Below, one piece after another: positions 21,231 through 34,293 of a stretch of DNA of 64,000 nucleotides. A program made the translations under genes and the position numbers. The notes under the pieces are model-generated. The model was not told the DNA's origin. It was given only the letters and a program-made list of their open reading frames with translations, and ran no database searches. Source of the DNA: Clostridia bacterium (GTDB lineage: Bacteria > Bacillota > Clostridia > Christensenellales > UBA1242); NCBI GenBank assembly GCA_045650505.1, contig JAZRRE010000003.1, positions 11,759 to 75,758 of the forward strand, in the 5' to 3' direction. How positions within the stretch are numbered: position 1 is the first letter of the stretch; each line of letters starts with the position of its first letter.

Positions 21231-21597
21231 GGGGGTGTTTCTGGTTTCGACAGGGAGCAAGAAATGCTATTTATAAGCGTGTGTGTAGCCTCGGCCTACA
21301 TTAAAAACGAGAAAAAAATAAACGCAGATAACTATTCTGTTGCTACTGACGTAGCAGTTGCTGCTTAATTTTAGCGGCTCGGCAATTTAAAATTTCTCAC
21401 TGGTTTTAAGTTGTTGTCATAATAAGTGGGGTGAACACTGTTGATGTTCGTGCATCAGTGTTCGAGATTTAACGGACTGGCTCAAAATGATTTTGTTTAT
21501 TTAAAGTTTTGTGTGAGACAATAAAATAAACTAGCACACGTAGAAGGGGTAGTCTTTCGCTTTTTGGACGCGGGTTCAAGTCCCGCCACCTCCACCA
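21231..21597 (+). ncRNA. ssrA: tmRNA (SsrA)
   Basis: 5' GGGGGTG pairs with 3' CACCTCCACCA, including a G3:U pair. T-arm GGACGCGGGTTCAAGTCCCGCC. The internal tag frame ends ...ADNYSVATDVAVAA-TAA (21324-21368). Confidence 0.93.
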
Positions 21598-21600
21598 AAT

Positions 21601-21630
21601 AAAAGCCTTGGAATTTTCCAAGGCTTTTTC
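21601..21630 (+). terminator. tmRNA terminator
   Basis: AAAAGCCTTGG-aatttt-CCAAGGCTTTTT. Confidence 0.85.
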
Positions 21631-21718
21631 TTATAGTCGGTGGCTGGGACAGTTTGAAATGAGTGACGCTCGAAATTTTCTCGCTATTCTGTCGCAAGAT
21701 AAACTTGCTCCTTACACG

Positions 21719-21735
21719 CCCGCCACCTCCACCAA
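21719..21735 (+). repeat. Direct repeat of the tmRNA 3' end (att-like)
   Basis: CCCGCCACCTCCACCAA is identical to 21582-21598, the last 17 nt of ssrA including one flanking base. Confidence 0.9.
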
Positions 21736-21742
21736 TATTTCA

Positions 21743-21774
21743 AATCGAACCTAATACATTGGGTTCGATTTTTA
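21743..21774 (+). terminator. Second terminator, following the duplicated tmRNA end
   Basis: ATCGAACC-taatacattg-GGTTCGAT followed by T5. Confidence 0.75.
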
Positions 21775-21858: not shown

Positions 21859-22428
21859 ATGAGTATATTTGATGATATAAAAGAATCAGTAGAAAATTTT
21901 TTCAAAGAAAAAACAACTAAATATAACAAATCTTCAAAATGGAAAGAATATAAACTTGGAGCAACTTTAACACATTGTGCAACTTGTTATGATAGAAATA
22001 ATAAAATTTACGAAGCATATTATAATGAACCAAAACTTCCAGAACACGATAATTGCAAATGTTATCTTGAGTGGCTCAAAAGTTTGGGTGTTGGAAAAGC
22101 AACGGAACTTGGAATAAATGGTGCAGATTTTTATCTAAAATATTATGGGCGTTTGCCAGAGTATTATATAACAAAACAAGAAGCAAAAAGTTTAGGTTGG
22201 AAGTCTTATAAGGGAAATTTTGACAAAGTTGCACCTGGAAAAATGATGGGTGGAAATATATATAAAAATAAATTGGGTATATTGCCAAACAAAGAAGGTC
22301 GAGTTTGGTATGAGTGTGATATTGATTATCAAGGTGGATACAGAAACAATGCAAGGCTTGTTTATTCAAATGATGGTTTGATATTTAAAACAGATAGTCA
22401 TTATACAAATTTTATAGCGATTGAATAA
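21859..22428 (+). CDS. Barnase-family ribonuclease toxin with an N-terminal MuF-type CxxC...HxNCxC motif
   Basis: The C-terminal ~110 aa align by eye with B. amyloliquefaciens barnase (LPEYYITKQEAKSLGWK...VAPGKMMGGNIYKN...GRVWYECDIDY...RNNARLVYSNDGLIFKTDSHYTNF). The N-terminus has CATCYDRNNKIY...LPEHDNCKCY. Confidence 0.88.
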   Translation: MSIFDDIKESVENFFKEKTTKYNKSSKWKEYKLGATLTHCATCYDRNNKIYEAYYNEPKLPEHDNCKCYLEWLKSLGVGKATELGINGADFYLKYYGRLPEYYITKQEAKSLGWKSYKGNFDKVAPGKMMGGNIYKNKLGILPNKEGRVWYECDIDYQGGYRNNARLVYSNDGLIFKTDSHYTNFIAIE

Positions 22429-22438
22429 GGAGAAAACT

Positions 22439-22717
22439 ATGGTAAAGTATGAATTTAATAGAAATGAATTTGAATGGGCAGAAGAGTTTTATGACATTAT
22501 TCAAAAGAAAATGAATTTGCCAGATTGGTTTGGAAAAAATCCAGATGCATTGTGGGATATGCTTACAGGTCACATTGAAACGCCTTGTGAAATTACACTA
22601 GTGGGTTTTAGTAGAGAAGAAAATGAATATAATAAAAAGGTTTTGGGTTATATATTTGACATTTTACGAGATGCACAAGAAGAGTTCCCAGACGAGTTTA
22701 AAATTATAATAAAATAG
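22439..22717 (+). CDS. Barstar-family immunity protein, copy 1
   Basis: F.DIIQKKMNLPDWFGKNPDALWDMLTGHIE matches the barstar YYGENLDALWDCLTG helix. AAGGAG RBS. ATG 22439 lies within the track ORF. Confidence 0.88.
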   Translation: MVKYEFNRNEFEWAEEFYDIIQKKMNLPDWFGKNPDALWDMLTGHIETPCEITLVGFSREENEYNKKVLGYIFDILRDAQEEFPDEFKIIIK

Positions 22718-22725
22718 GTGTTGCT

Positions 22726-23007
22726 ATGGTAAAGTATGAATTTAATAGAAATGAATTTGAATGGGCAGAAGAGTTTTATGATGTTATTCAAAAGAAAATG
22801 AATTTGCCAGATTGGTTTGGAAAAAATGCTGATGCTTTGTGGGATATGCTTACAGGTCACATAGAAACACCTTGTGAAATTATACTTATTGGTTTTAATA
22901 AAGAAGAAACAAATAAATATAATAAATTAATAATTGATAGAATACTTTTTTGTTTTGAAGAAGCAGAAAAAGAATATCCAGACGAATTTAAAATAATTAA
23001 AAAGTAG
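22726..23007 (+). CDS. Barstar-family immunity protein, copy 2
   Basis: The N-terminal ~55 aa are nearly identical to copy 1 (NADALWDMLTGH). The C-terminus has diverged. Confidence 0.88.
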   Translation: MVKYEFNRNEFEWAEEFYDVIQKKMNLPDWFGKNADALWDMLTGHIETPCEIILIGFNKEETNKYNKLIIDRILFCFEEAEKEYPDEFKIIKK

Positions 23008-23013
23008 GTTTTT

Positions 23014-23292
23014 ATGGTTAAATATGAATTTAATAGAAATGAATTTGAATGGGCAGAAGAGTTTTATGACATTATTCAAAAGAAAATGAATTTGCCAGAT
23101 TGGTTTGGAAAAAATCCACCTGCATTATGGGATATGCTTACAGGTTACATAGAAACACCTTGTGAAATTACACTTATTGGATTTAACAAGGAAGAAAATG
23201 ATTACAATAAAAAAGTTTTAGGGTATATACTTGAGAGATTTGAAGATGCAGAAAAAGAATTTCCTGATGAATTTAAAATAATTAAAAAGTAA
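23014..23292 (+). CDS. Barstar-family immunity protein, copy 3
   Basis: Same N-terminal block, but NPPALWDMLTGY. The first Asp of the barnase-binding helix is replaced by Pro. Confidence 0.85.
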   Translation: MVKYEFNRNEFEWAEEFYDIIQKKMNLPDWFGKNPPALWDMLTGYIETPCEITLIGFNKEENDYNKKVLGYILERFEDAEKEFPDEFKIIKK

Positions 23293-23412: not shown

Positions 23413-23445
23413 GTGGATAATAACAAAAAGCCAAAGGAGAAAACT

Positions 23446-24729
23446 ATGAAAGAGTTTGATAGAGTTATTGGATATGAATCAATTAAAAAAGAATTAAAAA
23501 GAATTTGTGATATTTTGGTGAATCCTGAAAAATATGACAAATTTGGGGTTAAAGCCTCACAGGGCTTGCTTTTGTTTGGTGACCCAGGTGTGGGCAAAAG
23601 TTTAATGGCGGAATGCTTCATTAATGCCACAAAAAGAAAGTGTTTTGTTTGCAGAAAAACCAAGCCAAACGGTGAATTTGTGAATGAAATCACAAAAACA
23701 TTTGAAGATGCCAAAGCAAATGCGCCATCAATTGTATTTCTTGATGATATGGATAAGTTTGCAAATGAAGATGAAAGAAGACCTGACACCGAAGAATATG
23801 TGACCATTCAATCTTGCATTGATGGAATTAAAGGCAGTGATGTGTTTGTTGTTGCGACCGCAAATGATATTTACAAACTTCCTTATTCACTTCGAAGGAC
23901 AGGCAGGTTCTCAAAAAGAATTGAAGTAAGAGCACCTGAAGGCAAAGATGCAGAAAACATTATTAAGTTTTATTTAAGCCAAAAAGACAAAGTCGGTGAT
24001 ATCAACTTAACCGAAATTTCAAGACTTCTCACAACAAAAACCTGTGCCGATTTAGAAATTATTGTAAATGAAGTAGGGGTTTATGCTGCAGCAGAAGGCA
24101 AAGAAAAAATTGAGCATAATGATATGGTTAGGGCATGTTTAAGAGTGTTATATGATGCACCTGAAGCAGAAGAATCTGTGTTTTCAAACAGCAGTGAGAA
24201 AAACAAGATGACTGCTTATCACGAAGCAGGGCATATTGTTGTTGCAGAAATTTTAGAGCCCGAAAGTGTAACCCTTGCATCTATTGCAAATTACACAGGT
24301 GATGCTGCAGGAATCACCTCAACTTATCAAACAAATGATTATTATCATTCAATCAAATATATGAAAAACAGAGTGAAAGTTGTGCTTGGTGGAAAGGCTG
24401 CAACTGAAATTGTGTTTGGTGAAATTGATGTTGGTGCAACAAATGATTTAAACAGAGCATTTAAAATTGCATCAAGATTTGATGATGACTATTGTGGAAT
24501 AGGTTTCGATTCAAATATTCGATACAACCATGATACATCAGATATGCAGAGAGAAAGACATAATCAAAAACTTGCAGTTGAACTTGAAAAATCTTATTTA
24601 GAAGTGAAAGAAATTATTGTTAAAAATCGTGAGTTTTTAGAAAAATTGGCTAACAAACTTTTAGAAAAAACAACAATTATGATGAGTGATATTCAAGAAA
24701 TTAAAAAGACTTGCAACATTTCAAGGTAG
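23446..24729 (+). CDS. Soluble FtsH-like AAA+ ATPase fused to an M41 zinc metalloprotease domain (no TM segments)
   Basis: Walker A GDPGVGKS, Walker B IVFLDDMD, SRH/Arg-finger ATANDIYKLPYSLRRTGRFS, and M41 motifs AYHEAGH...GGKAATEIVFG...GATNDL. ATG 23446 follows AAGGAG. The track start at 23413 directly abuts the predicted -10. Confidence 0.85.
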   Translation: MKEFDRVIGYESIKKELKRICDILVNPEKYDKFGVKASQGLLLFGDPGVGKSLMAECFINATKRKCFVCRKTKPNGEFVNEITKTFEDAKANAPSIVFLDDMDKFANEDERRPDTEEYVTIQSCIDGIKGSDVFVVATANDIYKLPYSLRRTGRFSKRIEVRAPEGKDAENIIKFYLSQKDKVGDINLTEISRLLTTKTCADLEIIVNEVGVYAAAEGKEKIEHNDMVRACLRVLYDAPEAEESVFSNSSEKNKMTAYHEAGHIVVAEILEPESVTLASIANYTGDAAGITSTYQTNDYYHSIKYMKNRVKVVLGGKAATEIVFGEIDVGATNDLNRAFKIASRFDDDYCGIGFDSNIRYNHDTSDMQRERHNQKLAVELEKSYLEVKEIIVKNREFLEKLANKLLEKTTIMMSDIQEIKKTCNISR

Positions 24730-24736
24730 GTGATTT

Positions 24737-25429
24737 ATGAGATATGTGGTTTCAGACATTCATGGCAATTATGATTTGCTTGTAAAATTATTAAATAAAA
24801 TTAAATTTTCAAAAGAAGACACATTGTTTGTTTTGGGTGATGTGATTGACAAGGGCAAAGATGTTCAAAAATTGTTAAATTTGCTTTTTGGTGAACTTCG
24901 TGATAACTCTTTTGTTCTTGCTGGAAATCATGAGTATGAGTTTGTGAAAATGGTTACCAACTTAATAACTCAAAATGCAAGTGACAAGAAAATTTTAGAG
25001 GAAAGCAAAAAGTTTTTGGGTGTTAAAAACTTAACACTTCAAGATGTTGATGACATTATGAATTTGCCTTATTTTCACGAAGAAGATGATTTTATTTTGG
25101 TTCATGCTGGTGTTCCATTCGATATGCGCGGAAATCAAATTCCTTTAGAACAAGCGGCTCTTGAAGATTTGGTTTATGATAGAAGATTTAAAAGAGAATG
25201 TTTTTTGCCTGAAAATTGTAAGTGTGTAATTTTTGGGCACACGCCAACATTTTATATTGAAGGGCATAGTGGCAAGATTATAAAATATCAAAAACCTAAA
25301 ACAGTGGGAAACAAGCCAAAAGATTATTACAAAATCCATATTGACACCGGCAATTATTTAACCGGAATTTTGGGCTGTTTGTGTCTTGATGATATGACAG
25401 AATATTATGTTAGTGAAATTGTTGAATAA
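24737..25429 (+). CDS. PPP-family metallophosphoesterase (PrpE/ApaH/lambda-phosphatase-like)
   Basis: Motifs VSDIHGN, GDVIDKG, GNHE, VHAG and GHTP occur in canonical order. Starts 8 nt after the protease gene. Confidence 0.85.
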   Translation: MRYVVSDIHGNYDLLVKLLNKIKFSKEDTLFVLGDVIDKGKDVQKLLNLLFGELRDNSFVLAGNHEYEFVKMVTNLITQNASDKKILEESKKFLGVKNLTLQDVDDIMNLPYFHEEDDFILVHAGVPFDMRGNQIPLEQAALEDLVYDRRFKRECFLPENCKCVIFGHTPTFYIEGHSGKIIKYQKPKTVGNKPKDYYKIHIDTGNYLTGILGCLCLDDMTEYYVSEIVE

Positions 25430-25433
25430 ATAG

Positions 25434-25467
25434 AAATGTGTCCAAAATAATGGACACATTTTGTTTT
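25434..25467 (+). terminator. Hairpin terminator that also contains a TGTCC-N8-GGACA dyad (module B)
   Basis: AAATGTGTCC-aaaataat-GGACACATTT followed by TTTTGTTTT. TGATATTAT (-10 hexamer 25475-25480) follows 18 nt after the dyad. Confidence 0.7.
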
Positions 25468-25517
25468 AAAATGATATTATGGAAATGATAAAAATTAGAA
25501 AATTAAAAAGGTTGAAA

Positions 25518-26510
25518 ATGGCTTACACAAACAATAAAAAATTATCCATAATTTATATTTTAGAAATTTTGAAAGAATATTCAGATGAAAAACACCCGCT
25601 CACACAAAATGAAATCTTGAAAAAACTTTATGATGTTTATGGAATGGAATGTGAAAGAAAATCTGTTGGTGCAAACATTGAAAATTTGATTGAAGCGGGC
25701 TATGACATCGTTAAATGTGAGGGTGGTGGCTGCTATCTTGGTGCACGCGATTTTGAGCAGAGTGAAATTTCGTTTTTGGTTGATGCAGTTTTTTCAAGCA
25801 AATCAATAGACAGCAAAAAATCGCGAGATTTGGCAAAGAAAATTTCGGCATTTTCAAGCAAATATGATAGAAAGAAATATAATTATATTTACAAAAGTGA
25901 TGAAATTTCAAGAACAAACAACAAGCAGTTGTTTTACACCATTGACATTTTGCACGAAGCAATAGAGCAGAAAAAACAGGTTGAATTTTCTTACGACAGA
26001 CCTTATGTTTCTAAAGCAAATCAAGAGAAACAACAAAATAAAAGATATATTGTGAATCCTTATTTTTTGGTTAATAATCAGGGCAGATATTATCTTGTGT
26101 GCAATTATCATTATTTTGATGATATTGCAAACTATAAACTTGACCAAATTAAAGATATCAAAATTTTAGAAAAAGATGCAAAACCAATTGAAAAGGTTAA
26201 AGGTTTTGAAAATGGACTTGATATTGCAAAGTATGCAAATGAAAATATTTATATGTTTTCAGCCGAAACTATTGATGCAGTTTTAAAACTTTCAGATGAG
26301 TATGCGGTTGGAATTTTAACCGATTGGTTTGGAACAAATGCAAGGGTTTATCAGCAAAATGGAGAGATTTTTGCTGATGTGAAAGCAAATGAAAAAGCCA
26401 TAGTTTATTGGGCACTTCAATATGGTGAGCACTTTGAACTTTTGTCACCACAACAAACACGCGAAAAAATCAAACAAGCAATAGAAACTTTAAACAAAAA
26501 ATACAATTAA
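25518..26510 (+). CDS. WYL-domain transcriptional regulator (wHTH-WYL-C-terminal extension)
   Basis: N-terminal wHTH-like region (IIYILEILKEYSDEKHPLTQNEILKKL...) and a central RYIVNPYFLVNNQGRYYLVCNY WYL signature. Start chosen downstream of the predicted -10, while the track start at 25479 overlaps it. Confidence 0.8.
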   Translation: MAYTNNKKLSIIYILEILKEYSDEKHPLTQNEILKKLYDVYGMECERKSVGANIENLIEAGYDIVKCEGGGCYLGARDFEQSEISFLVDAVFSSKSIDSKKSRDLAKKISAFSSKYDRKKYNYIYKSDEISRTNNKQLFYTIDILHEAIEQKKQVEFSYDRPYVSKANQEKQQNKRYIVNPYFLVNNQGRYYLVCNYHYFDDIANYKLDQIKDIKILEKDAKPIEKVKGFENGLDIAKYANENIYMFSAETIDAVLKLSDEYAVGILTDWFGTNARVYQQNGEIFADVKANEKAIVYWALQYGEHFELLSPQQTREKIKQAIETLNKKYN

Positions 26511-26527
26511 ACACAGGAGAAAAATAG

Positions 26528-27214
26528 ATGTTTCAACAAAAAAGTATAAAAGATATTGTGGATGAAATTTATCAAGATATTGTTAATGGTAAAATTATTT
26601 TTGCAAATGAAAATCAATTTCAGTTTGAATTGGCGTGGAGAATTAAAAATGAGTATAAAAATTATGATGTAATTTTTGAGGCTGTCTATTTAGACAACAC
26701 AGGAAAGAAATGTTACACTGATTTAGTTGTGTTAGATAAAAACAATAAAAAATACACTCCAATTGAACTTAAATATAAAACAAAGAGTAGATATAAAAAT
26801 GATTTATTATTAAAAAATCAAGATGCACAAGGGCTTGCAGCATATGATTATTTAATGGATTTAATGAGAATAGAATTTTTACAACAAAATCCACAGCAAC
26901 AATTAAAATTTTATGAGTATTATGATAATAATCAAAGTTATTCATTTGATACAGGCTATGCAATAATGTTCACAAACGATAAATCTTATTATAACGGAGA
27001 TTGGATAAATAATCAGGCTAGAGATTTCTCAATAAAAGAGGGTTTAAACAAAACAGGAACTCTTAATTGGAATTTAAAAATCAATAAAGTTAATAATTTT
27101 GGAAAAAACAGACAAAATTCAATTATTTTAAAAAACAACTATTTGTGTGAATGGGCACCAAAAATTGCGATAAATAACAATAATTATTTTCGCTATTTAA
27201 TACTAGAAGTTTAG
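26528..27214 (+). CDS. Hypothetical protein, possible PD-(D/E)xK nuclease fold
   Basis: Ordered E (FQFELAWRI), D (CYTDLVVLD) and ExK (TPIELKYK) motifs. This is weak, motif-level evidence only. Confidence 0.45.
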   Translation: MFQQKSIKDIVDEIYQDIVNGKIIFANENQFQFELAWRIKNEYKNYDVIFEAVYLDNTGKKCYTDLVVLDKNNKKYTPIELKYKTKSRYKNDLLLKNQDAQGLAAYDYLMDLMRIEFLQQNPQQQLKFYEYYDNNQSYSFDTGYAIMFTNDKSYYNGDWINNQARDFSIKEGLNKTGTLNWNLKINKVNNFGKNRQNSIILKNNYLCEWAPKIAINNNNYFRYLILEV

Positions 27215-27224
27215 GAGAACATTT

Positions 27225-28100
27225 ATGGAAGAAAATAAAATTATGTTAAATGATATATTAAACTTTACAGAAGAAGAAATTAAAAATGCAAAAATAACAT
27301 TAAATATGACTGCTGGACATGATGGTAAAAGTTTTTTAGATTACTGGCTTGAAACAAATGATTTAAAAAATGCACAAAAACATTGTTATTGGTCACATGG
27401 AGGAGAAAAGGAAGAAAATAATAGAAATTTTACAAGAGAAGGACAGATAAATGTTGGATTTGTAAGAATGAATGAAAATGATAAGTGGTTATTAGTTACA
27501 ATAGGTAAGATTACAAAAATACCACAAAAACCGGACCATTGTGAATTTGAAGAATATAAAGAAAAATATATTGGGTTATATGGTAGGTTAATTATTAGGT
27601 GTAAAAAAGGTAATACATTTGCTAGATATTGTTTTAATTTAAGCACATTTTTAGATAATTGCGAAGTGCTAGAAATATTACCTAAAAGATATGAAGGGGA
27701 AGAATTTAAAGGATTTGACCAAATATCATTAAAATATGATGAGTTAAAAGATATGTTAGCGGAAAAATCAAGAAAGACTTGGAAAGAAGCATTAAGTCAA
27801 ATTAAAGGTGTATATTGTTTAACTGATAAAAAAACAGGGAAATTATATATTGGTTCTGCAACAGGTGAAAATGGTTTTTCTCAAAGATGGAATGATTATT
27901 TAAAAACAAAAACTGGTGGAAATGTTGAGTTAATAAAATTATATGAAAAAGAAGGTGAGCAATATTTTATTGATAATTTCCAATATACGGTATTAGAATG
28001 GTTTGGTTTAAATTATGATAATAAAAAAATTCTTGAAAGAGAAAATTATTGGAAAAATGCTTTTTCAACTCGTGAAGGAAATGGATACAATAAAAACTAA
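27225..28100 (+). CDS. GIY-YIG nuclease domain protein with an uncharacterised ~185-aa N-terminal domain
   Basis: C-terminal KGVYCLTDKKTGKLYIGSA...RWNDY...ERENYWK...N gives the GIY, YIG, Arg and Glu elements in order. Confidence 0.8.
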   Translation: MEENKIMLNDILNFTEEEIKNAKITLNMTAGHDGKSFLDYWLETNDLKNAQKHCYWSHGGEKEENNRNFTREGQINVGFVRMNENDKWLLVTIGKITKIPQKPDHCEFEEYKEKYIGLYGRLIIRCKKGNTFARYCFNLSTFLDNCEVLEILPKRYEGEEFKGFDQISLKYDELKDMLAEKSRKTWKEALSQIKGVYCLTDKKTGKLYIGSATGENGFSQRWNDYLKTKTGGNVELIKLYEKEGEQYFIDNFQYTVLEWFGLNYDNKKILERENYWKNAFSTREGNGYNKN

Positions 28101-28215
28101 AAAAGAAATCTTTTGATTTCTTTTTTTTTGCTGAAAAATTTAAAATCATTATGTCCGTTTTTTGGGGCTTGGTTTTTGATATTATAGGGTTAAGCAAAAG
28201 GAAGAATGATTATGA
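28093..28215 (+). repeat. Module C / repeat R1: terminator hairpin + dyad + extended -10 + RBS
   Basis: The first 38 nt are identical to 29221-29258 (AAAACTAAAAAAGAAATCTTTTGATTTCTTTTTTTTTG). The rest looks ~85% similar by eye. Dyad 28152-28169, -10 hexamer 28180-28185. Confidence 0.85.
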
Positions 28216-29222
28216 GTAAAATTGAATCAAGAAAAATATTGGTTGTTAACGATGGTGGAAAAAAATTAGAAAAAAGCGATTTATTATTTTCAACTATTGT
28301 ATCTATTTGGGAACAAGGCAGAGAAGAAATTGAAGATTTAATAAATATTATAAATAAAAAAGGTCAAGGCTTTAATTTTGACAATGATTTCATTATGAGA
28401 ACATGTCTTTATTTAATGTGTCCATCGTCTGAATTGAAAATTGAAAATTTGGGTTCAGAAAACATAAAAGCAATTAAAGATAATTGGGAAAATATTAAAA
28501 ACAGCATTATTAAAGCAGTTGATTTACTTAATTGTTTTGGTTTTTGTTCAGGAAATTTGGTTTCTAAAAATGTTGCAATCCCGGTTATTTATTACATTCA
28601 TAAGGACGGCAAATTAGATGAAGAGTCTATAAGTGAATTAAGAAAATATTTAATTATAGCACAAGTGAAACAGTTGTTTGGTGCTGCAGGCAATTCGGCT
28701 TTAGCAAAAATAAAAAAAGAATTAAACAACCACAAACTCAAAAAAGAAGGCTTTAAATTATCTTATTTTAATGAATTGAAATTTGTTGCACAAAGAGATT
28801 TTTCTGTTAACGAAGACTTGTTAGAAATAGTTTTAAATTATGATAAGGGTAGCCCTTATGCGTTTATGATATTATCTTTGTTATATCCAGAAATTAAAAT
28901 GAATGAAGTTCAATGGCATCAAGACCATATGCACCCATATGCGAAATTTAACACGAAAAATTTAAAGAGTTTGGGAATAAATGAAGGAAAAATTATTGAA
29001 TGGCAAAAAATGAGAGATAAATTACCAAATTTGCAATTACTTGTAGGAAATGTAAATGAAAGTAAAAATGATATGGATTTGGAAGAATGGCTCAATAAAG
29101 GTAATATTGATAAATATTTGCCTAGAAAAATTTCTTATAAACTTGTTGATTTTGAAAAATTTTATGAAAAAAGAAGAGAACTTTTAAAAGATGAATTAAA
29201 AAAGATATTTGATATTAAATAA
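28212..29222 (+). CDS. GmrSD-family fragment: distal DUF262 part + DUF1524 His-Me finger, N-terminal catalytic part missing
   Basis: Starts at the ...NDGGKKLEKSDLLFS... motif that lies mid-DUF262. The DGQQR-type N-terminal motifs are absent. C-terminal HQDHMHP...NLQLLVGNVNESKN is a DUF1524/HNH-like motif. Confidence 0.7.
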   Translation: MSKIESRKILVVNDGGKKLEKSDLLFSTIVSIWEQGREEIEDLINIINKKGQGFNFDNDFIMRTCLYLMCPSSELKIENLGSENIKAIKDNWENIKNSIIKAVDLLNCFGFCSGNLVSKNVAIPVIYYIHKDGKLDEESISELRKYLIIAQVKQLFGAAGNSALAKIKKELNNHKLKKEGFKLSYFNELKFVAQRDFSVNEDLLEIVLNYDKGSPYAFMILSLLYPEIKMNEVQWHQDHMHPYAKFNTKNLKSLGINEGKIIEWQKMRDKLPNLQLLVGNVNESKNDMDLEEWLNKGNIDKYLPRKISYKLVDFEKFYEKRRELLKDELKKIFDIK

Positions 29223-29347
29223 AACTAAAAAAGAAATCTTTTGATTTCTTTTTTTTTGAAAAAATTTGAAATTATTTTTCAAATCCGTTTTTTGGGATTC
29301 TTCTTTTGATATTATAGAGTTATACAAAAGGAGGAAGGAAATATGAG
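29221..29347 (+). repeat. Module D / repeat R2: terminator hairpin + dyad + extended -10 + RBS
   Basis: Direct repeat of 28093-28215. Dyad AATCC-N8-GGATT at 29282-29299, then 10 nt, then TGATATTAT (-10 hexamer 29310-29315). Confidence 0.85.
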
Positions 29348-29579
29348 TGAAAATGAATTAAGAAAAAAAATTGATGAATTATTGGTGGTTGATGATGTGA
29401 GCATGGCAAGAATGAAAAGTGTGCTCAAAATTGGTTACACAAGGGCTGCAAAAATTATAAACTTTCTTGATGAAGAAGGTTATTTGATTGAAATGGGTTG
29501 TTATCAAAAGAAGTTTAACTTCGATTTTTATGATGAACTCAAAGATGTGATTTTTGAATGGTTTTGTGAAGTTGCCTAA
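29343..29579 (+). CDS. Small stand-alone FtsK-gamma-like winged-helix protein (78 aa)
   Basis: VSMARMKSVLKIGYTRAAKIINFLDEEGYLIE resembles the FtsK gamma domain core (LQR.L.IGY.RAA.I.D.LE..G.I). Confidence 0.65.
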   Translation: MSENELRKKIDELLVVDDVSMARMKSVLKIGYTRAAKIINFLDEEGYLIEMGCYQKKFNFDFYDELKDVIFEWFCEVA

Positions 29580-29593
29580 ATGAATTTAGTGCA

Positions 29594-29625
29594 TAAAAAA
29601 ACAGCCTAATTTTAGGCTGTTTTTG
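29594..29625. terminator. Bidirectional terminator between convergent island genes
   Basis: A7, then CAGCCTA-attt-TAGGCTG, then T5. Confidence 0.8.
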
Positions 29626-29639
29626 GCATTTATTATTTA

Positions 29640-31298
29640 TTAAAATGAGCGATATTTTTCAAAATATTCTTGAAGTGTTTTGCACTCTTTCATTTTTTTG
29701 AGGGTGCTTGCTTGAAGTCGTTGTTTATATTCTTCGGTTTCGGCTTGGTTTTGAATTTTGCCTTCAAGAACAGATTTTAAAATTCTAGACATTGTTCCAG
29801 ATGATTTGAAAAGATTGTGTGAAGAAGCATAAGCATCTGCCATATCAATCATTTCAGGAGTTGGGGTGGCATATGAACCATCAGGCATAATGAATTTGGC
29901 ATTTCCACTTGAATACATACCATAGTCAAAATCGGCTGAATATGAATCAAGTTTTTTGTATAAACCTGTTTTTTTGTTGAAAAGTTTATTTCTGGCATCA
30001 GGTGAAATTTGATTTGAAACGATTACAAAAGGTTTTGCAAACTCATTTCCTAAATTTATTGTTGCACCAGACTTTCTTTTATGGGCAACTAATGCAGTCA
30101 TTAAAAATTTAACTTCTGCATCTGTTAATCTCTTTAAAATTTCACTTTCTTCGGTTGAGTTTGAATCATATGAGTGAATTCGTTCATAATAATATGAAAT
30201 AATGTTTTCAGCAAAACGAATGATGTGAGTATTGTCAACGGTTGAAAGTCCAATATCCATAACAGTTGCAAGGCTTTTCATTTGTGATTGATTTGTCAAC
30301 ATTTCAGGAATATCAAGTTTGCCTTCGGCAATATCTTCAATTTGGTGTTTTATTATTGCAACATATGCTTGAGATTTTCTCTTGCTGTTTTCTTTATAAA
30401 ATTCTGCAAATTCAGGGTTTAAAAGAGAAACTTTTTCACACATTTTCTTAAAACCGGCAACATTTTCAATTTGAAACACACGGCAGAACTCTGTTGCTGA
30501 TAAACCACTATTCATAAAATAGTTCGCAATAAAAAAGTAGTCTTCAGCAGAAGTGATTTTCATTCCATCAGCAAGTTCAAAAAGTTGCATTAGTTCACCG
30601 TTGTCATCTGTCCAAGACATCTTTTTCACAAGGCGAATTTGTTGTTGAATCGCAGAGGTTTTCTTTCCGTGTTCACTTTGAAATTTGCGAAGTTGTTCGT
30701 CACCTTCAATATAAGCCAAAATAGCTTCAGGAACTTTGCTTTTATCTTCGATTTGGCTGTAATGTTCAACAACGTTTTGTCTTCCAAATGGGCTGATTGA
30801 ACTTGTTCGTGTCATAACAAATTTCAATTTGTCAGGAGCGTGAACTGCAATCCATTCAAGGGCTTCCCAAGGCTTATCTTCAGGAATTGAGTAGAGAAGT
30901 CTGTCATCAACTTTGTGTTGAACTTTCATTTTATAAATGTTTTCAGGGTGAACAATAACTTCGCGGCAAAGTTTTGGAAGTGTTAAAATTTGTTCTTTTG
31001 AATATTCTTTAAAATCTTTTGGTGAAAGTGTTTTAAACATTATTGGCCAAAACAAAACATCATAAGCAACTTCTGGGTGTTTTAAACAAAAGTCAATAAT
31101 GGTTTTTTTGTTTAAAATAAGGTTTTGAATGAGATCCATTTCATCATATTCAAGATGTGCGCGTTCGTAATAACCAGCATCTTTATGCGAAAGCAATTTT
31201 TCAACGATGTGATATGCATAGAAATGGCTATGGTTATTTGTTCTTACATAATTAAAATTGTTAAGCAATTCTTCTCTTAAAATCTCTCGTTTTTCCAT
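29640..31298 (-). CDS. Hypothetical protein (552 aa), no recognisable domain
   Basis: Clean long ORF. Its ATG overlaps the stop of the upstream 54-aa ORF (TAATG). No motif recognised. Confidence 0.7.
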   Translation of the reverse strand: MEKREILREELLNNFNYVRTNNHSHFYAYHIVEKLLSHKDAGYYERAHLEYDEMDLIQNLILNKKTIIDFCLKHPEVAYDVLFWPIMFKTLSPKDFKEYSKEQILTLPKLCREVIVHPENIYKMKVQHKVDDRLLYSIPEDKPWEALEWIAVHAPDKLKFVMTRTSSISPFGRQNVVEHYSQIEDKSKVPEAILAYIEGDEQLRKFQSEHGKKTSAIQQQIRLVKKMSWTDDNGELMQLFELADGMKITSAEDYFFIANYFMNSGLSATEFCRVFQIENVAGFKKMCEKVSLLNPEFAEFYKENSKRKSQAYVAIIKHQIEDIAEGKLDIPEMLTNQSQMKSLATVMDIGLSTVDNTHIIRFAENIISYYYERIHSYDSNSTEESEILKRLTDAEVKFLMTALVAHKRKSGATINLGNEFAKPFVIVSNQISPDARNKLFNKKTGLYKKLDSYSADFDYGMYSSGNAKFIMPDGSYATPTPEMIDMADAYASSHNLFKSSGTMSRILKSVLEGKIQNQAETEEYKQRLQASTLKKMKECKTLQEYFEKYRSF

Positions 31299-31462
31299 TA
31301 TTCTTCTCCAATTTCTTCAGTTAAAAATTTTTTCTTGTCACTTAAATATTCATCTAAAATTTCAAGTTCTTTAACACTTAATTTATTTATCACAGATTTG
31401 TCATTTTCAATAAGACTTAAAACTTCTTCAATTTCGTTATCGATTGTGAAAAATTTACTCAT
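31298..31462 (-). CDS. Small acidic protein (54 aa), translationally coupled to the 552-aa gene
   Basis: Hand translation gives MSKFFTIDNEIEEVLSLIENDKSVINKLSVKELEILDEYLSDKKKFLTEEIGEE*. AAGGAG lies 8 nt upstream. Below the ORF-track cutoff. Confidence 0.6.
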   Translation of the reverse strand: MSKFFTIDNEIEEVLSLIENDKSVINKLSVKELEILDEYLSDKKKFLTEEIGEE

Positions 31463-31504
31463 AACAAATCTCCTTAAAAATTACATTTTTAAATCACACC
31501 AATT

Positions 31505-31533
31505 ATTATATCATAACTTTTTATATTTGTCAA
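31505..31533 (-). promoter_or_regulatory. Consensus promoter of the 54-aa/552-aa operon
   Basis: Minus strand: TTGACA (31533-31528), 17-nt spacer, TATAAT (31510-31505). Confidence 0.7.
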
Positions 31534-31569
31534 TAGGGGCATAAATGGGTTTTATAATGCGTGCATAAT

Positions 31570-31596
31570 AAAAACAGGGGCAAGCCCTGTTTTTGT
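31570..31596. terminator. Terminator downstream of the helicase gene
   Basis: ACAGGG-gcaag-CCCTGT flanked by A- and T-runs. Confidence 0.75.
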
Positions 31597-34293
31597 TTAT
31601 TGTTTTTTAAATGGTGCTTTTGGAAGTTTTTTTCCTTTTTTCACAACAGATTTAGTTGTTATTTCAAAGCAGTTGTTGAAATAAGACAAGTTTTTAACTT
31701 TTTGAAGCACTTTAAAACCCTCATCGGTTCTGGTGTAAACATTTAAATATAAGCCCATTTTTCTGCTAATGCATTTGCTGAAATAGGTGGTTTTATCTTT
31801 GTTTGAACCAATAAGTTTTGGCACGCAAATTGAAAGCCTGAAGTTTTTTGAAATAATTTTTTTCTTAACAAGAATGTATCTTGGGTCTTGAACGGGTCCT
31901 AAAACTTCTTGCATTGCTTTTAAAAAGATATTTGATTGCTCTTTGTTTTCGGTTTTGATAAGGGAATAGAAAACACTATTTTTATCATTCTCAAAAGTTT
32001 TAATGTTAACTTTAGCACCAAAATTAATGACATCATCTCTTTTTAATGATTTCAAAACTGCACTTGAGAGTGATTTGATTAAATTTTTTAAGTTTCGTGT
32101 GTTAACCACAAAATAAACTTGTCTTAAAATAAGCACGATAAATCCGACGGCAACAACTGTTATTGATAATGTTTTAAATGTTTGATTTTTGATTATCATA
32201 TTAACAAGCATTAAGGCGATTGCAAAGATTGAAAACTTAAATGCTGGTTTCAAAAAGTCATAAAGCCCAATAAAAGGTGCTTTGGCTTTCGATTTAATAA
32301 TGTTTCCTTGAATCACTTCGCTTGGTCCATTTCCAAGTGCGATGTCCCAAGATTTTGAAGTGTTTTCACGGTCAGCAGCAAGAGCCATAATCTTCTCGTT
32401 ATATTCAGGCAAATTTTCCTGATTAAAGGTGAGTGGAATTTGACATCTTTCAATTCCGTATTCAATTTCGTTTGTTTCGTAGTTTGGTGCTAAAAAGGTT
32501 TTAAACCTACGCTCAAGTGTTTGATAATCTGTCAGGTTATAACTGCAAATTTCTTCACTTGAATTATCTTCGTTAGGCATAACGGTTACGAGGTGCCAAA
32601 TGTTTGAAATTTTGTTTGGCTGATTTTTGTCAACACGAATGGCTCTGCCACGAACTTGGTTTGAAAGCATAAAACTTCCAACAAAACTAGCAAATATGAG
32701 TGAGTTGATGTTAGGGGAATCCCAACCCTCACCAAGAAGTGATTTTGTGCCAATTACAATTTGAATGTGTCCTGCTTGGAAAAGTTCGGTCACAATGTTT
32801 ACTTTGTTTTTGTTGTTAACACCAATAAACGCACACTCAACATAATCAGTGTTTTCAAGTGGTTTAAGAGTATATTTACAGCCATAGTTTTTGCAGGTTT
32901 GTTCAAACTCTTTCAAGATGTTGTTTCGAATAATCACAAGAGTTCCACAAAGCACTGCAAGGTTGGTTTCAGGGTTTTGACGTCTTGCATACTCAAAAAT
33001 GCTGACAACAGAAATGTTGTCGATATCATTTTCAGTGCCAATGGCTTTCATTCCAGCTTTTTTGATATAGTCGGTCAAAATGAGCATACGAAGGTCTGCT
33101 TTAAGGTTTTCTTTTTCGTGTTTTATGATTTCAAGAATGCTTTGCATTTTGCTTTGGCTGGTCATAATTTCTTTATTGATTTTTGGGTTTGAACCAAGAT
33201 AAATCTTATTTTTAGAAATCAAGCCGTATCCTTTCAAAATGGTTTCAAAAGAAGTGTAATATTCTTCACCATAAAACTTTGCGTTTGTTTTTAAATCATT
33301 AAGCCATTTCAAAACAACTGAAAGAGAATAAGCCCCTAAACTTGTTTTGTTTTTTAAATATTTCAAAACTTTCGCGTTTGAAGGAATGGCAAAATGTTCG
33401 GCAATAGTGTAAGCCCCTGAAAACATAGGCAAATATTCAAGAAATTTGTCCATACTCGTTTCAAAATGGGTGATGGAAAGCAACATAATGTTTTGAAATG
33501 TTTCACTTTCAGCAATTTCTTTAATTGCAAGTTCAGTTTTTTCTTGGTATTTTTTTGCAACCTCAATTTCTTCATTGGTTGGAAAGTTGCAATAAATGAA
33601 ATCTTGATGTTTGCAAAGATTCTTTTTTTGCACAAGTTCAGGAACAAGCACTTCTTGGTCAATTTCACCGCAAAGTGAAATATATTTATTCCATTCGTTG
33701 TCATCAGAATCATAAGGTGGGGTGGCAGTTAAGGCAATAATTTTAATGTCACTGCCAAGAGCACCCAAAAACTCAATGAGTGCCTTGTGCCACTCATTTC
33801 TTAAGTGATGTGCTTCATCTAAACAAATAGTTTTGATTCCTTGATTTTTAACGGTTGCAATAAGGTCAAAATCTTCAAAGTTTTCGTCTTGTTCTTCTTC
33901 AAGAGATTCATCATCGCTTTCAAGTGTTTCTTTTGTGCCTTTTTTAAGTTTGTTCATTGCAGAGTGCAAACTTTGATATGTGGTTGAGGTTAAAAGCAAA
34001 GGCTCTTTAAGATTTAATGAAAACAATTCATCATTTTCTTTTTCTGTGTCAACAAACATTTCAAAACGCGATTTCCATTGGTTTTTAATTGTGATTGTTG
34101 GCGAAAAGATAAGGGCAGGTTGTTTTAGCCTTGAAATAAGTTCAAGCCCCAAAATGGTTTTTCCACTTCCTGGTGCAGCCACAATATGAATTTTTCCATT
34201 CTTGAGATATTTATTTGAGTTGTCAAGAACGTTTTGTTGATAATCTCTAAATGTGCCTTTAAATTGCACTTTGTTAAAATTTAATTTTTCCAT
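31597..34293 (-). CDS. SF2 (ResIII/DEAH) helicase with a two-TM hairpin and a ~168-aa C-terminal domain
   Basis: Motif I AAPGSGKT, motif II CLDEAHHL, motif III LTATPP, and motifs V/VI GEGWDSP...QVRGRAIR. Hydrophobic segments FKFSIFAIALMLVNMII and LSITVVAVGFIVLILRQVYFVV are encoded at ~32104-32250. Confidence 0.85.
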   Translation of the reverse strand: MEKLNFNKVQFKGTFRDYQQNVLDNSNKYLKNGKIHIVAAPGSGKTILGLELISRLKQPALIFSPTITIKNQWKSRFEMFVDTEKENDELFSLNLKEPLLLTSTTYQSLHSAMNKLKKGTKETLESDDESLEEEQDENFEDFDLIATVKNQGIKTICLDEAHHLRNEWHKALIEFLGALGSDIKIIALTATPPYDSDDNEWNKYISLCGEIDQEVLVPELVQKKNLCKHQDFIYCNFPTNEEIEVAKKYQEKTELAIKEIAESETFQNIMLLSITHFETSMDKFLEYLPMFSGAYTIAEHFAIPSNAKVLKYLKNKTSLGAYSLSVVLKWLNDLKTNAKFYGEEYYTSFETILKGYGLISKNKIYLGSNPKINKEIMTSQSKMQSILEIIKHEKENLKADLRMLILTDYIKKAGMKAIGTENDIDNISVVSIFEYARRQNPETNLAVLCGTLVIIRNNILKEFEQTCKNYGCKYTLKPLENTDYVECAFIGVNNKNKVNIVTELFQAGHIQIVIGTKSLLGEGWDSPNINSLIFASFVGSFMLSNQVRGRAIRVDKNQPNKISNIWHLVTVMPNEDNSSEEICSYNLTDYQTLERRFKTFLAPNYETNEIEYGIERCQIPLTFNQENLPEYNEKIMALAADRENTSKSWDIALGNGPSEVIQGNIIKSKAKAPFIGLYDFLKPAFKFSIFAIALMLVNMIIKNQTFKTLSITVVAVGFIVLILRQVYFVVNTRNLKNLIKSLSSAVLKSLKRDDVINFGAKVNIKTFENDKNSVFYSLIKTENKEQSNIFLKAMQEVLGPVQDPRYILVKKKIISKNFRLSICVPKLIGSNKDKTTYFSKCISRKMGLYLNVYTRTDEGFKVLQKVKNLSYFNNCFEITTKSVVKKGKKLPKAPFKKQ

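What the first reader, a model, noticed from the sequence alone, without database searches (positions are those of the whole stretch)
25518..28100. WYL regulator co-transcribed with a PD-(D/E)xK-like protein and a GIY-YIG nuclease, with no methyltransferase
Three tightly packed genes (gaps of 17 and 10 nt) lie together. The first is a wHTH-WYL regulator. The second is a 228-aa protein with ordered E...D...ExK motifs. The third is a 291-aa protein whose C-terminus is a clear GIY-YIG nuclease, and its ~185-aa N-terminal domain is unknown to me. WYL regulators are known to sit upstream of anti-phage systems and repress them. A pair of unrelated nuclease folds with no modification enzyme suggests a modification-dependent or abortive-type effector pair, not classical restriction-modification. 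I cannot match the pair to a named system.
Basis: partly seen in the sequence, partly recalled or inferred. Interest (0 to 1): 0.65.

Follow-up and report, generated by a model that had tools for sequence, protein, structure and literature searches.

The report
WYL-led operon with two separable nucleases
A WYL-type regulator heads a three-gene operon in a defence island beside the tmRNA gene: the GIY-YIG gene is the already named single-gene anti-phage system Uzume, and the 228-aa gene belongs to a large unannotated family of stand-alone PD-(D/E)xK nucleases, so these look like two independent nucleases sharing a regulator, not a new two-nuclease system.

Summary
Three co-directional genes (25518-26510, 26528-27214, 27225-28100; gaps of 17 and 10 nt) lie between two terminator-like hairpins. 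Gene 1 has WYL and WCX domains. Gene 2 has a PD-(D/E)xK core, with E28, D65, E80 and K82 invariant in 155 relatives. Gene 3 has an intact GIY-YIG site. No methyltransferase was found in the island.

Gene 3 matches the PADLOC UzuA model (E 4.7e-47). UzuA is Uzume, a published single-gene defence system of unknown mechanism. Its relatives at 50-68% identity occur without gene 2.

Gene 2 belongs to a family of about 3,400 clusters that has no Pfam, NCBIfam or PADLOC model. It is usually a solo gene in prophages, mobile elements and defence islands.

In related gut bacteria the orthologous WYL gene heads a mosaic slot:
- WYL-PDEXK followed by a terminator
- WYL-PDEXK-FtsK-like-UzuA
- WYL-464aa-UzuA

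Each nuclease therefore occurs without the other, although they co-occur in three independent loci.

Best reading: a WYL-controlled slot carrying two autonomous nuclease modules. Moderate interest. The unannotated PD-(D/E)xK family and the unknown N-terminal domain of UzuA are the parts worth testing.

The parts
25434..25461 (+). Stable hairpin followed by a T-rich tract after the metallophosphatase gene. It is a terminator-like boundary of the upstream unit. It overlaps the -35 of the WYL promoter-like site, so it could also serve as an operator.
   Evidence: RNA fold -17.2 kcal/mol, z -6.1. The same hairpin, with compensatory stem changes and a clearer T-run, lies upstream of the WYL orthologues in L001 and L125.
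25451..25480 (+). Promoter-like site (TGGACA-18-TATTAT, with TG before the -10) upstream of the WYL gene.
   Evidence: Consensus scan, 10 of 12 matches. L001 and L125 carry TGnTATGAT at the aligned place. This is a consensus match only; the number of such sites in the region is not above shuffles.
25518..26510 (+). WYL-domain transcription regulator (N-terminal HTH-like region, WYL, WCX), 330 aa from the conserved start.
   Evidence: Pfam WYL 8.6e-14 and WCX 1.3e-5. PADLOC WYL 2.1e-27. The start aligns with the orthologues' start. Orthologues of 64-78% identity head related loci.
26528..27214 (+). 228-aa stand-alone PD-(D/E)xK-type nuclease of an unannotated family.
   Evidence: E28, D65, E80, K82 and D111 are 100% conserved, and E51, R114, N150 and W209 99%, in 155 members. 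AF2 pLDDT 88 with a canonical core. Almost all of the strongest Foldseek PDB hits are PD-(D/E)xK nucleases, but E >= 0.013. Family members weakly hit HSDR_N_2, AHJR-like and PDDEXK_13. 3,406 cluster representatives at E <= 1e-3.
27225..28100 (+). UzuA (Uzume): unknown N-terminal domain of about 185 aa plus a C-terminal GIY-YIG nuclease.
   Evidence: PADLOC UzuA 4.7e-47 and 1.2e-37. I-TevI catalytic domain by sequence (3e-4) and by fold (3e-5). Catalytic Y197, Y208, R221, E273 and N289 are invariant.
28099..28131 (+). AT-rich hairpin followed by a T9 run: terminator-like end of the three-gene unit.
   Evidence: Sequence. Fold -10.8 kcal/mol, z -4.7.
23413..25429 (+). Context only, a separate upstream unit: a soluble FtsH-like AAA+/M41 protease (23413-24729) and a calcineurin-like metallophosphatase (24737-25429). 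They recur next to the WYL-PDEXK pair in relatives.
   Evidence: Pfam and NCBIfam. Same order in L001 and L125. Rearranged but present in L026 and L023.
28206..29222 (+). Context only: a neighbouring ORF matching only the C-terminal half of the HEC-05 candidate-defence model in PADLOC.
   Evidence: PADLOC HEC-05 6.3e-92, profile positions 257-594 of 600. phrog_17051 positions 243-580 of 584.

Best explanation
The three genes form one WYL-headed transcription unit inside a variable, low-GC island downstream of smpB-tmRNA in a Spo0A-encoding Firmicute from an animal-gut metagenome.

The WYL protein (wHTH-like, WYL, WCX) is the conserved anchor. By analogy with BrxR and CapW it most likely represses its own promoter and releases it when its WYL domain binds an infection or DNA-damage signal. 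This step is inferred.

Downstream of the WYL gene is a swappable cargo slot. In this genome the slot holds two autonomous single-protein nucleases.

(1) A 228-aa PD-(D/E)xK enzyme of a large unannotated family. It is normally found as a solo gene in prophages, mobile elements and defence islands. It probably acts as a dimeric metal-dependent DNA endonuclease against incoming DNA. The fold and active site have computational support. The substrate and the defence role are inferred.

(2) UzuA, the single-gene Uzume defence protein. Its C-terminal GIY-YIG domain cuts nucleic acid. Its N-terminal domain presumably supplies target recognition, possibly of modified DNA, as the sensor domain does in the GIY-YIG type IV enzyme CMoRE/PD-T4-3. 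This is a hypothesis.

The two nucleases share regulation but do not need each other.
For: Operon anatomy:
- Gaps of 17 and 10 nt with RBS-like sequences.
- Terminator-like hairpins before the WYL gene and after UzuA.

Identities:
- WYL and WCX domains.
- UzuA model E 4.7e-47, with the catalytic residues aligned to I-TevI.
- PD-(D/E)xK residues invariant in 155 members, on a canonical core.

Separability in loci whose WYL gene is 64-78% identical to this one (for the WYL and nuclease identities):
- L001, L126 and L125 carry WYL-PDEXK without UzuA. L001 has a strong terminator directly after the PDEXK gene.
- L122 carries WYL, a 464-aa unknown gene, then UzuA at 65% identity.
- L127/L128 carry WYL, PDEXK (47%), an FtsK-like gene, then UzuA (32%).

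UzuA without either partner: between housekeeping genes (L007-L011) and in a prophage (L123).

PDEXK family without a fixed partner: 65 upstream neighbours hit 79 Pfam families, with at most 3 neighbours per family.

Contexts of PDEXK homologues:
- Serine recombinases and integrases.
- Between terL and portal in a Peptoclostridium prophage.
- Beside BREX-5 pglZ on a haloarchaeal plasmid.

Literature:
- BrxR-type WYL regulators repress, and about half sit upstream of diverse defence systems (PMC9122601).
- Uzume is a single-gene GIY-YIG system (10.1101/2024.10.26.620412).
- CMoRE is a GIY-YIG type IV enzyme with a separate sensor domain (PMC12923530).
Against: - No expression data. Co-transcription and repression by the WYL protein are inferred from sequence signals only.
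- The HTH of the WYL protein was not detected by any model. The protein shows no significant sequence similarity to the solved BrxR or CapW chains. Only three chains deposited as 'WYL domain-containing protein' were hit, at E 0.004-0.008.
- The defence role of the 228-aa family is untested. No PADLOC model matches it. One family member hits PD-Lambda-3_A at 3.4e-5.
- Foldseek matches of the 228-aa model are all non-significant (best E 0.013, TM 0.2-0.3).
- The two nuclease families co-occur in three independent, deeply diverged loci (window, L127/L128, L086). On a crude estimate this is somewhat more than expected by chance, so some functional cooperation is not excluded.
- The idea that the UzuA N-domain is a reader of modified bases rests on non-significant PUA-like fold hits (E 0.2-2.4).
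Confidence: 0.6

Rival explanations
1. The PD-(D/E)xK protein and the GIY-YIG protein act together as one two-nuclease effector system, either modification-dependent or abortive, under WYL control.
For: Gaps of only 10-17 nt in the window. The two families co-occur in three independent loci with deeply diverged sequences. These are the window, L127/L128 (PDEXK 47%, UzuA 32% identity) and L086 (UzuA then PDEXK, 36-nt gap, 31-33% identity). Both extra GIY-YIG proteins are UzuA by PADLOC (1e-45 and 4e-61).
Against: - Uzume is described as a single-gene system.
- Five distinct UzuA contexts at 50-68% identity lack the PD-(D/E)xK gene. One of these (L122) sits under an orthologous WYL gene, with an unrelated 464-aa gene in the PDEXK position.
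- Three of the four other close PD-(D/E)xK lineages lack UzuA. One of them has a terminator directly after the PDEXK gene.
- Gene order and spacing differ among the three co-occurrences.
- Only 3 of about 94 non-redundant PD-(D/E)xK loci carry UzuA.
Confidence: 0.12
2. The 228-aa PD-(D/E)xK protein is not a host defence effector. It is a selfish or element-serving nuclease, for example a free-standing homing-type endonuclease or a DNA-processing enzyme of mobile elements. It landed downstream of the WYL gene, and UzuA is the only true defence gene in the operon.
For: - Homologues sit between terL and portal in a prophage, and after the head genes in another prophage.
- The commonest neighbours are serine recombinases, which occur within 5 kb of the gene in 12 loci. 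Tyrosine integrases and resolvases also occur.
- Eight hits in IMG/VR viral contigs.
- No fixed partner, and a patchy distribution from Clostridia to Paracoccus and haloarchaea.
Against: - In six lineages the gene lies directly downstream of a WYL regulator in the same orientation. These are the window, L001, L125, L126, L127 and the distant L090. That position is typical of regulated defence cargo (PMC9122601).
- It also sits beside BREX-5 pglZ and beside type I hsdM genes.
- No cultured-phage genome in INPHARED carries it.
- Prophage morons near structural genes are often defence genes as well, so these contexts do not discriminate between the two readings.
Confidence: 0.2
3. A classical restriction-modification system whose methyltransferase was missed or lies elsewhere.
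For: Two nuclease genes with a regulator resemble C-protein-controlled restriction genes. Some family members lie near methyltransferases (N6_Mtase and UPF0020 among upstream neighbours; hsdM).
Against: No methyltransferase domain in any ORF scanned between 21.8 and 35.5 kb. Methyltransferases are next to the PD-(D/E)xK gene in only a few of about 65 neighbourhoods. UzuA homologues stand alone.
Confidence: 0.02

Closest known systems
Uzume (UzuA), a single-gene anti-phage system attributed to Millman et al. 2022
   Same: Full-length match to both PADLOC UzuA models (E 4.7e-47 and 1.2e-37). Same size (about 285 aa) and same layout: an unknown N-terminal domain plus a C-terminal GIY-YIG domain. 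Relatives at about 50% identity are widespread and stand alone.
   Different: Here the gene is the third cistron of a WYL-headed operon, not a lone gene. Anti-phage activity of this copy is untested. The mechanism of Uzume is still listed as unknown (PMC12926258).
BrxR/CapW-type WYL regulators of defence islands
   Same: WYL plus WCX domains behind an N-terminal HTH-like region. The gene is first in, and co-directional with, a set of nuclease genes. An inverted repeat overlaps its promoter region. The downstream cargo is mosaic.
   Different: No significant sequence similarity to the solved BrxR or CapW chains. The HTH was not detected by profile. Firmicute host, whereas the BrxR census in PMC9122601 found that family mostly in Proteobacteria. 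The inverted repeat also behaves as the terminator of the upstream gene, because its stem shows compensatory changes.
CMoRE / PD-T4-3, a GIY-YIG type IV restriction enzyme specific for 5hmC and 5ghmC (PMC12923530)
   Same: A single polypeptide that joins a GIY-YIG nuclease to a separate non-catalytic domain. No methyltransferase. Defence context. It is the only mechanistic precedent found here for a GIY-YIG single-gene defence protein.
   Different: The domain order is reversed (nuclease N-terminal in CMoRE, C-terminal here). Foldseek similarity is limited to about 100 columns at E >= 1.1. The window protein gave no PADLOC PD-T4-3 hit. Its sensor function is unproven.
Solo PD-(D/E)xK nucleases such as HSDR_N/Mrr-like type IV enzymes and archaeal Holliday-junction-resolvase-like (AHJR) nucleases
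   Same: An E...D...ExK active site on an alpha-beta-beta-beta-alpha-beta core. Small size. Tandem-fusion relatives of 412-480 aa suggest a dimer. Family members weakly hit HSDR_N_2 and AHJR-like.
   Different: The window protein reaches no Pfam, NCBIfam, PHROG or PADLOC model at E <= 0.01. It has a conserved C-terminal half rich in aromatic residues (Y154, F167, W181, Y205, W209) with no recognised counterpart.

Membership tests
Uzume (UzuA) | Significant full-length match to the UzuA profile | tested here: met
   PDLC03973 E 4.7e-47 (residues 70-291, profile 55-278 of 278). PDLC03974 E 1.2e-37 (residues 3-291).
Uzume (UzuA) | GIY-YIG domain with intact catalytic residues | tested here: met
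   Pfam GIY-YIG 1.2e-7. R221, E273 and N289 align with I-TevI R27, E75 and N90. These residues are invariant in 46 homologues. Foldseek I-TevI 3e-5.
Uzume (UzuA) | Acts as a single gene with no obligate partner | tested here: met
   Five distinct contexts of homologues at 50-68% identity lack the PD-(D/E)xK gene. Four of the five also lack an adjacent WYL gene (L122 has one two genes upstream). This is genomic evidence only.
Uzume (UzuA) | Protects against phage when expressed | not testable with these tools
   Needs plaque assays.
BrxR/CapW-type WYL defence regulators | wHTH + WYL + WCX architecture | tested here: inconclusive
   WYL 8.6e-14 and WCX 1.3e-5. No HTH model hit. The PADLOC WYL model spans residues 35-326.
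BrxR/CapW-type WYL defence regulators | Sequence relatedness to BrxR or CapW | tested here: not met
   A PDB sequence search at E <= 0.01 returned only three chains deposited as 'WYL domain-containing protein' (7u02, 7tzv, 9cu3; E 0.004-0.008). No BrxR or CapW entries were returned.
BrxR/CapW-type WYL defence regulators | Located upstream of, and co-directional with, defence genes | tested here: met
   The WYL gene directly precedes UzuA-containing cargo in the window, L122 and L127.
BrxR/CapW-type WYL defence regulators | Binds inverted repeats at its promoter and represses | not testable with these tools
   A conserved inverted repeat (25434-25461) overlaps the -35-like hexamer. It also fits a terminator hairpin. 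EMSA and reporter assays are needed.
PD-(D/E)xK nuclease superfamily | Conserved acidic residues and lysine in the order E...D...(D/E)xK | tested here: met
   E28, D65, E80 and K82 are 100% conserved in 155 members.
PD-(D/E)xK nuclease superfamily | Alpha-beta-beta-beta-alpha-beta core with the motif residues on helix 1, strand 2 and strand 3 | tested here: met
   AF2 model with pLDDT 88 and pTM 0.89. Elements: H28-42, E46-55, E61-70, E75-84, H101-120, E144-149. Residue placement was read from the secondary-structure string, not from coordinates.
PD-(D/E)xK nuclease superfamily | Significant structural or profile match to a known member | tested here: inconclusive
   Almost all of the strongest Foldseek PDB hits are PD-(D/E)xK enzymes (MGME1, Cas4, R2 endonuclease domain, Bax1, DrdV, MunI, AddAB, EcoRV). 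However E >= 0.013 and TM is 0.2-0.3. Family members hit AHJR-like at 2e-4 and HSDR_N_2 at 4e-3. A profile search of PDB found nothing.
Classical (type I-III) restriction-modification | Cognate DNA methyltransferase in the locus | tested here: not met
   No methyltransferase domain in the island ORFs scanned between 21.8 and 35.5 kb.
   The UzuA N-domain has no Pfam hit in 46 homologues. Among the top 40 Foldseek hits, 13 are PUA-like proteins (YTH 7yyj/6zot/6k6u, EVE/THYN1 5j3e/2eve/2g2x/3eop, Lon-N), interleaved with unrelated folds. All have E 0.2-2.4 and probability <= 0.2. No other architectures carrying this domain were found.

The most novel reading that the evidence does not exclude
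The 228-aa protein represents a large family that has no Pfam, NCBIfam, PHROG or PADLOC model (at least 3,400 clusters at 50% identity, spanning Clostridia, Bacteroidales, Alphaproteobacteria and haloarchaea). On this reading the family is a new stand-alone anti-phage or anti-plasmid PD-(D/E)xK nuclease. Its conserved aromatic-rich C-terminal half would supply target recognition. In a clade of gut Firmicutes it would be deployed together with Uzume under a common WYL switch, so that the two nucleases cover different invaders.
Probability: 0.4. Interest if true: 0.5.

Novelty: new member of a known kind. Interest (0 to 1): 0.35.

Why it matters
- It removes an apparent novelty. The 'unnamed two-nuclease system' is largely the known Uzume gene placed under a WYL regulator.
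- It leaves three testable leads. The first is a sizeable family of solo PD-(D/E)xK nucleases that is absent from the profile libraries searched here. The second is a natural set of mosaic loci (same WYL regulator, different cargo) suited to asking what signal WYL regulators sense in Firmicutes. The third is the N-terminal domain of UzuA, whose function would explain how Uzume recognises its target.
- None of this overturns current understanding.

Tried and rejected
- Direct sequence searches of the 228-aa protein against Pfam, NCBIfam, PHROGs, PADLOC and PDB gave nothing useful. A profile search of PDB also gave nothing.
- The first word-indexed homologue search suggested a tiny family of 21 proteins. 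This was misleading: the exhaustive HMMER search found 3,406 clusters.
- I considered AAA-M41 protease, metallophosphatase, WYL and PD-(D/E)xK as one four-gene system, because the set recurs (L001, L125, L026, L023). I rejected it as the unit of the finding. A conserved terminator hairpin separates the metallophosphatase gene from the WYL gene. The wider PD-(D/E)xK family also lacks these partners.
- I looked for an att-type duplicate of the tmRNA 3' end that would delimit the island. I found only a 17-nt repeat 137 nt away. No integrase was seen.
- RNA evidence for co-transcription was not obtainable. The best public runs hold at most 22% of the region's 31-mers, and all are metagenomic DNA.
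- The Foldseek search of the UzuA model against viral structures returned only GIY-YIG domains and said nothing about the N-domain. A search with the N-domain alone found only full-length UzuA proteins.
- The Millman preprint held in the library does not use the name Uzume, and the journal version is not held. The single-gene status is therefore cited from secondary sources.
Full report
**1. Observation**

- WYL gene: the ORF opens at 25479, but the start shared with orthologues is ATG 25518 (330 aa; alignment with L001 and L125). It ends at 26510.
- 228-aa ORF: 26528-27214.
- 291-aa ORF: 27225-28100.

The gaps are 17 and 10 nt. RBS-like ACAGGAG and TTAGGAGAA precede genes 2 and 3.

A stable hairpin (25434-25461; -17.2 kcal/mol, z -6.1) with a T-rich tail follows the upstream metallophosphatase gene. 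An AT-rich hairpin plus a T9 run (28099-28131; z -4.7) follows the GIY-YIG gene. A promoter-like site with a TG-extended -10 ends at 25480. Such sites are no more frequent here than in shuffles.

The three genes therefore look like one transcription unit. No RNA data could be found: the public runs are metagenomic DNA holding at most 22% of the region's words.

**2. Setting**

smpB (20769-21212) and a tmRNA gene (21231-21597) precede a variable stretch. The housekeeping genes for Spo0A (35737) and AdhE follow it. In order, the stretch contains:
- a barnase-like RNase and three ORFs of the barstar type (one checked against Pfam Barstar);
- a soluble FtsH-like AAA+/M41 protease;
- a metallophosphatase;
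- the three genes of the finding;
- a C-terminal-only ORF of the PADLOC HEC-05 candidate;
- an FtsK-gamma-like ORF;
- a helicase operon on the other strand.

GC falls to 26-28% at 26-30 kb, against about 34% elsewhere. No methyltransferase domain was found in any island ORF scanned. This is a defence-island-like hotspot next to ssrA in a gut Firmicute.

**3. Gene 1**

Pfam gives WYL (8.6e-14) and WCX (1.3e-5). PADLOC WYL models match at 2.1e-27 and 6.8e-17. No HTH model hit the N-terminal 80 residues, so the wHTH is inferred.

The only PDB sequence hits are three chains deposited as 'WYL domain-containing protein' (E 0.004-0.008). BrxR and CapW were not hit. The architecture and position match the BrxR family, whose members repress defence islands and bind inverted repeats (PMC9122601). 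Strict membership in that family is not shown.

**4. Gene 2**

No curated library recognises it.

The word-indexed search found 21 relatives. The metagenome scan found at least 230. The exhaustive HMMER search found 3,406 cluster representatives at E <= 1e-3 and 2,567 at <= 1e-10. Among the 150 best, most are single-domain proteins of about 200-280 aa, and a few are tandem fusions of 412-480 aa. Where a source gives a name, it is 'hypothetical protein'.

In 155 members, E28, D65, E80, K82 and D111 are 100% conserved. E51, R114, N150 and W209 are 99% conserved.

The AF2 model (pLDDT 88, pTM 0.89) has the canonical alpha-beta-beta-beta-alpha-beta core, with these residues on helix 1, strand 2 and strand 3.

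Foldseek against PDB gives no significant hit. Almost all of the strongest hits are PD-(D/E)xK nucleases: MGME1, Cas4, the R2 endonuclease domain, Bax1, DrdV, MunI, AddAB and EcoRV (best E 0.013). Individual family members weakly hit HSDR_N_2, AHJR-like, PDDEXK_13 and DUF234.

I accept it as a PD-(D/E)xK nuclease of an unannotated family.

**5. Gene 3**

It matches both PADLOC UzuA models over nearly its full length (4.7e-47 and 1.2e-37).

Its C-terminal 100 residues are a GIY-YIG domain (Pfam 1.2e-7). The alignment to the two I-TevI mutant structures places R221 at R27, E273 at E75 and N289 at N90. These residues, with Y197 and Y208, are invariant in 46 homologues. The fold match to I-TevI has E 3e-5.

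Uzume is listed as a single-gene GIY-YIG system (10.1101/2024.10.26.620412) of unknown mechanism (PMC12926258).

The N-terminal domain of about 185 aa has no Pfam hit in any of 46 homologues. Among the top 40 Foldseek hits, 13 are PUA-like proteins (YTH, EVE/THYN1, Lon-N). They are interleaved with unrelated folds and are all non-significant (E 0.2-2.4, probability <= 0.2). This is a hint at a reader-type domain and nothing more.

The only mechanistic precedent I found is CMoRE/PD-T4-3. That protein is a GIY-YIG type IV enzyme with a separate sensor domain for 5hmC and 5ghmC, and its domain order is the reverse of UzuA's (PMC12923530).

**6. Are the genes a functional unit?**

Loci whose WYL gene is 64-78% identical to the window's show a mosaic:
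- window: WYL | PDEXK | UzuA | terminator
- L001 and L126: WYL | PDEXK (51%) | terminator (z -6.4 in L001) | 155 aa | 121 aa | Macro
- L125: AAA-M41 | metallophosphatase | 147 aa | WYL | PDEXK (50%) | a gene on the opposite strand
- L127/L128: WYL | PDEXK (47%) | FtsK/SpoIIIE-like, 279 aa | UzuA (32%; PADLOC UzuA 1e-45)
- L122: WYL | unrelated 464-aa protein | UzuA (65%)
- L120: 78 aa | FtsK-like, 281 aa | UzuA (68%) | HTH on the opposite strand

Other UzuA homologues (63-66% and 50% identity) sit between housekeeping genes or inside a prophage.

For the PD-(D/E)xK family at large (about 94 non-redundant loci), 65 immediate upstream neighbours hit 79 Pfam families, with at most three neighbours per family. 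The three-neighbour families are resolvase/recombinase, HTH_17 and WYL+WCX. Within 5 kb of the gene, the recurrent companions are serine recombinases (12 loci) and divergent XRE-type regulators (10 loci).

Annotated records place homologues in three kinds of setting:
- between terL and portal in a Peptoclostridium prophage;
- after the head genes in a Paracoccus prophage;
- beside BREX-5 pglZ on a haloarchaeal plasmid.

No cultured-phage genome carries the gene.

Each nuclease therefore occurs without the other, even under the same regulator. This argues for two autonomous modules.

Against complete independence, the two families are neighbours in three independent and deeply diverged loci. 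These are the window, L127/L128 and L086 (where UzuA precedes PDEXK by 36 nt). By a rough estimate this is a little more than chance for two rare families. I could not compute a proper expectation.

**7. Mechanism proposed**

| Step | Status |
|---|---|
| Operon anatomy, domain identities and active sites | Supported by the computations above |
| Separability of the two nucleases | Supported by comparative genomics |
| WYL protein represses the promoter at about 25451-25480 and is released by a ligand | Inferred |
| The 228-aa enzyme acts as a dimeric DNA endonuclease against invading DNA | Inferred |
| UzuA uses its N-domain for target recognition (possibly modified DNA) and its GIY-YIG domain for cleavage | Inferred |

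Confidence in 'WYL-controlled slot with two independent nucleases' is about 0.6. The rivals are:
- a cooperative pair (0.12);
- the PD-(D/E)xK gene as a selfish or element-serving nuclease, not a defence gene (0.2);
- a classical R-M system with a hidden methyltransferase (0.02).

**8. Novelty and score**

UzuA and WYL-regulated defence are known. The arrangement is a new instance of a known kind. The unannotated PD-(D/E)xK family and the N-domain of UzuA are the only open items. Interest is 0.35.

Noticed in passing
window 21231-21771: A tmRNA gene (tag ADNYSVATDVAVAA) lies directly after smpB. The last 17 nt of the tmRNA region (21582-21598) are repeated exactly at 21719-21735, just before a strong terminator hairpin (21742-21771). 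This could be a scar of an element once integrated at ssrA.
   Followed up: partly
window 21859-23292: A barnase-like secreted-RNase domain protein (189 aa, Pfam Ribonuclease 2.8e-12) is followed by three tandem paralogous ORFs (98, 93 and 92 aa). The first matches Pfam Barstar (1.2e-16); the other two were not scanned but have near-identical N-terminal sequence. A toxin with a triplicated immunity gene is unusual.
   Followed up: partly
window 23413-25429; L001 2464-4430; L125 1-1631; L026 5088-6359 and 10857-11537; L023 1020-1700: A soluble FtsH-like AAA+/M41 metalloprotease (no membrane part; HEAGH motif present) and a calcineurin-like metallophosphatase form a pair. The pair recurs beside the WYL-PDEXK unit. 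In two rabbit-gut Clostridia MAGs the phosphatase follows the PDEXK gene directly. This may be an uncharacterised defence-type module of its own. The protease hits PADLOC IetA at 4e-19.
   Followed up: partly
window 28206-29222: This ORF matches only the C-terminal half of the PADLOC HEC-05 model (profile 257-594 of 600; E 6e-92). The N-terminal half is absent, and only 105 nt separate the ORF from the UzuA stop. It is either a truncated remnant or a stand-alone C-terminal module.
   Followed up: partly
window 29343-29579 and 29597-29624: A 78-aa ORF with an FtsK-gamma-like winged helix (Pfam 1.1e-5, below the gathering score), followed by a strong terminator. FtsK/SpoIIIE-type genes also flank the related loci L001, L120 and L127, which hints at an integrative-element origin for the region.
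   Followed up: no
window 29640-34293, minus strand: An 898-aa ResIII/Helicase_C protein with a long unknown C-terminal half. Separately, an operon of a 54-aa ORF and a 552-aa ORF with no family hit, preceded by a perfect TTGACA-17-TG-TATAAT promoter match (31533-31505). This is possibly another defence module.
   Followed up: no
L122 399-1793: A 464-aa protein with no Pfam or PADLOC hit occupies the position of the PD-(D/E)xK gene, between an orthologous WYL gene and a UzuA gene of 65% identity. It overlaps the UzuA start by 23 nt. It is an alternative cargo of the same slot.
   Followed up: partly
L120 907-1752; L127 966-1805: FtsK/SpoIIIE-like ATPases of about 280 aa directly precede UzuA genes in two loci. 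They are 26% identical to each other and show weak PADLOC hits to the SspH C-terminus and mad8. A possible two-gene variant of Uzume.
   Followed up: partly
L130 (NZ_CP007453.1) 5992-6621: A homologue of the 228-aa protein sits between the terminase large subunit and portal genes of a prophage on the Peptoclostridium acidaminophilum megaplasmid. That position is typical of free-standing homing endonucleases and morons. A NERD-type nuclease is inserted a few genes further on.
   Followed up: partly
L084, L096, L101, L103, L107 (about 118 nt downstream of the PDEXK homologue); L001 7669-8475; L026 3395-4186: Genes that look related to ADP-ribose processing recur near PD-(D/E)xK homologues. A 167-172-aa protein that looks like a Macro domain by eye (not scanned) follows the PDEXK gene in five loci. 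A Pfam Macro protein lies downstream in L001 and L126, and an ADP-ribosylglycohydrolase lies in L026. The meaning is unknown.
   Followed up: no
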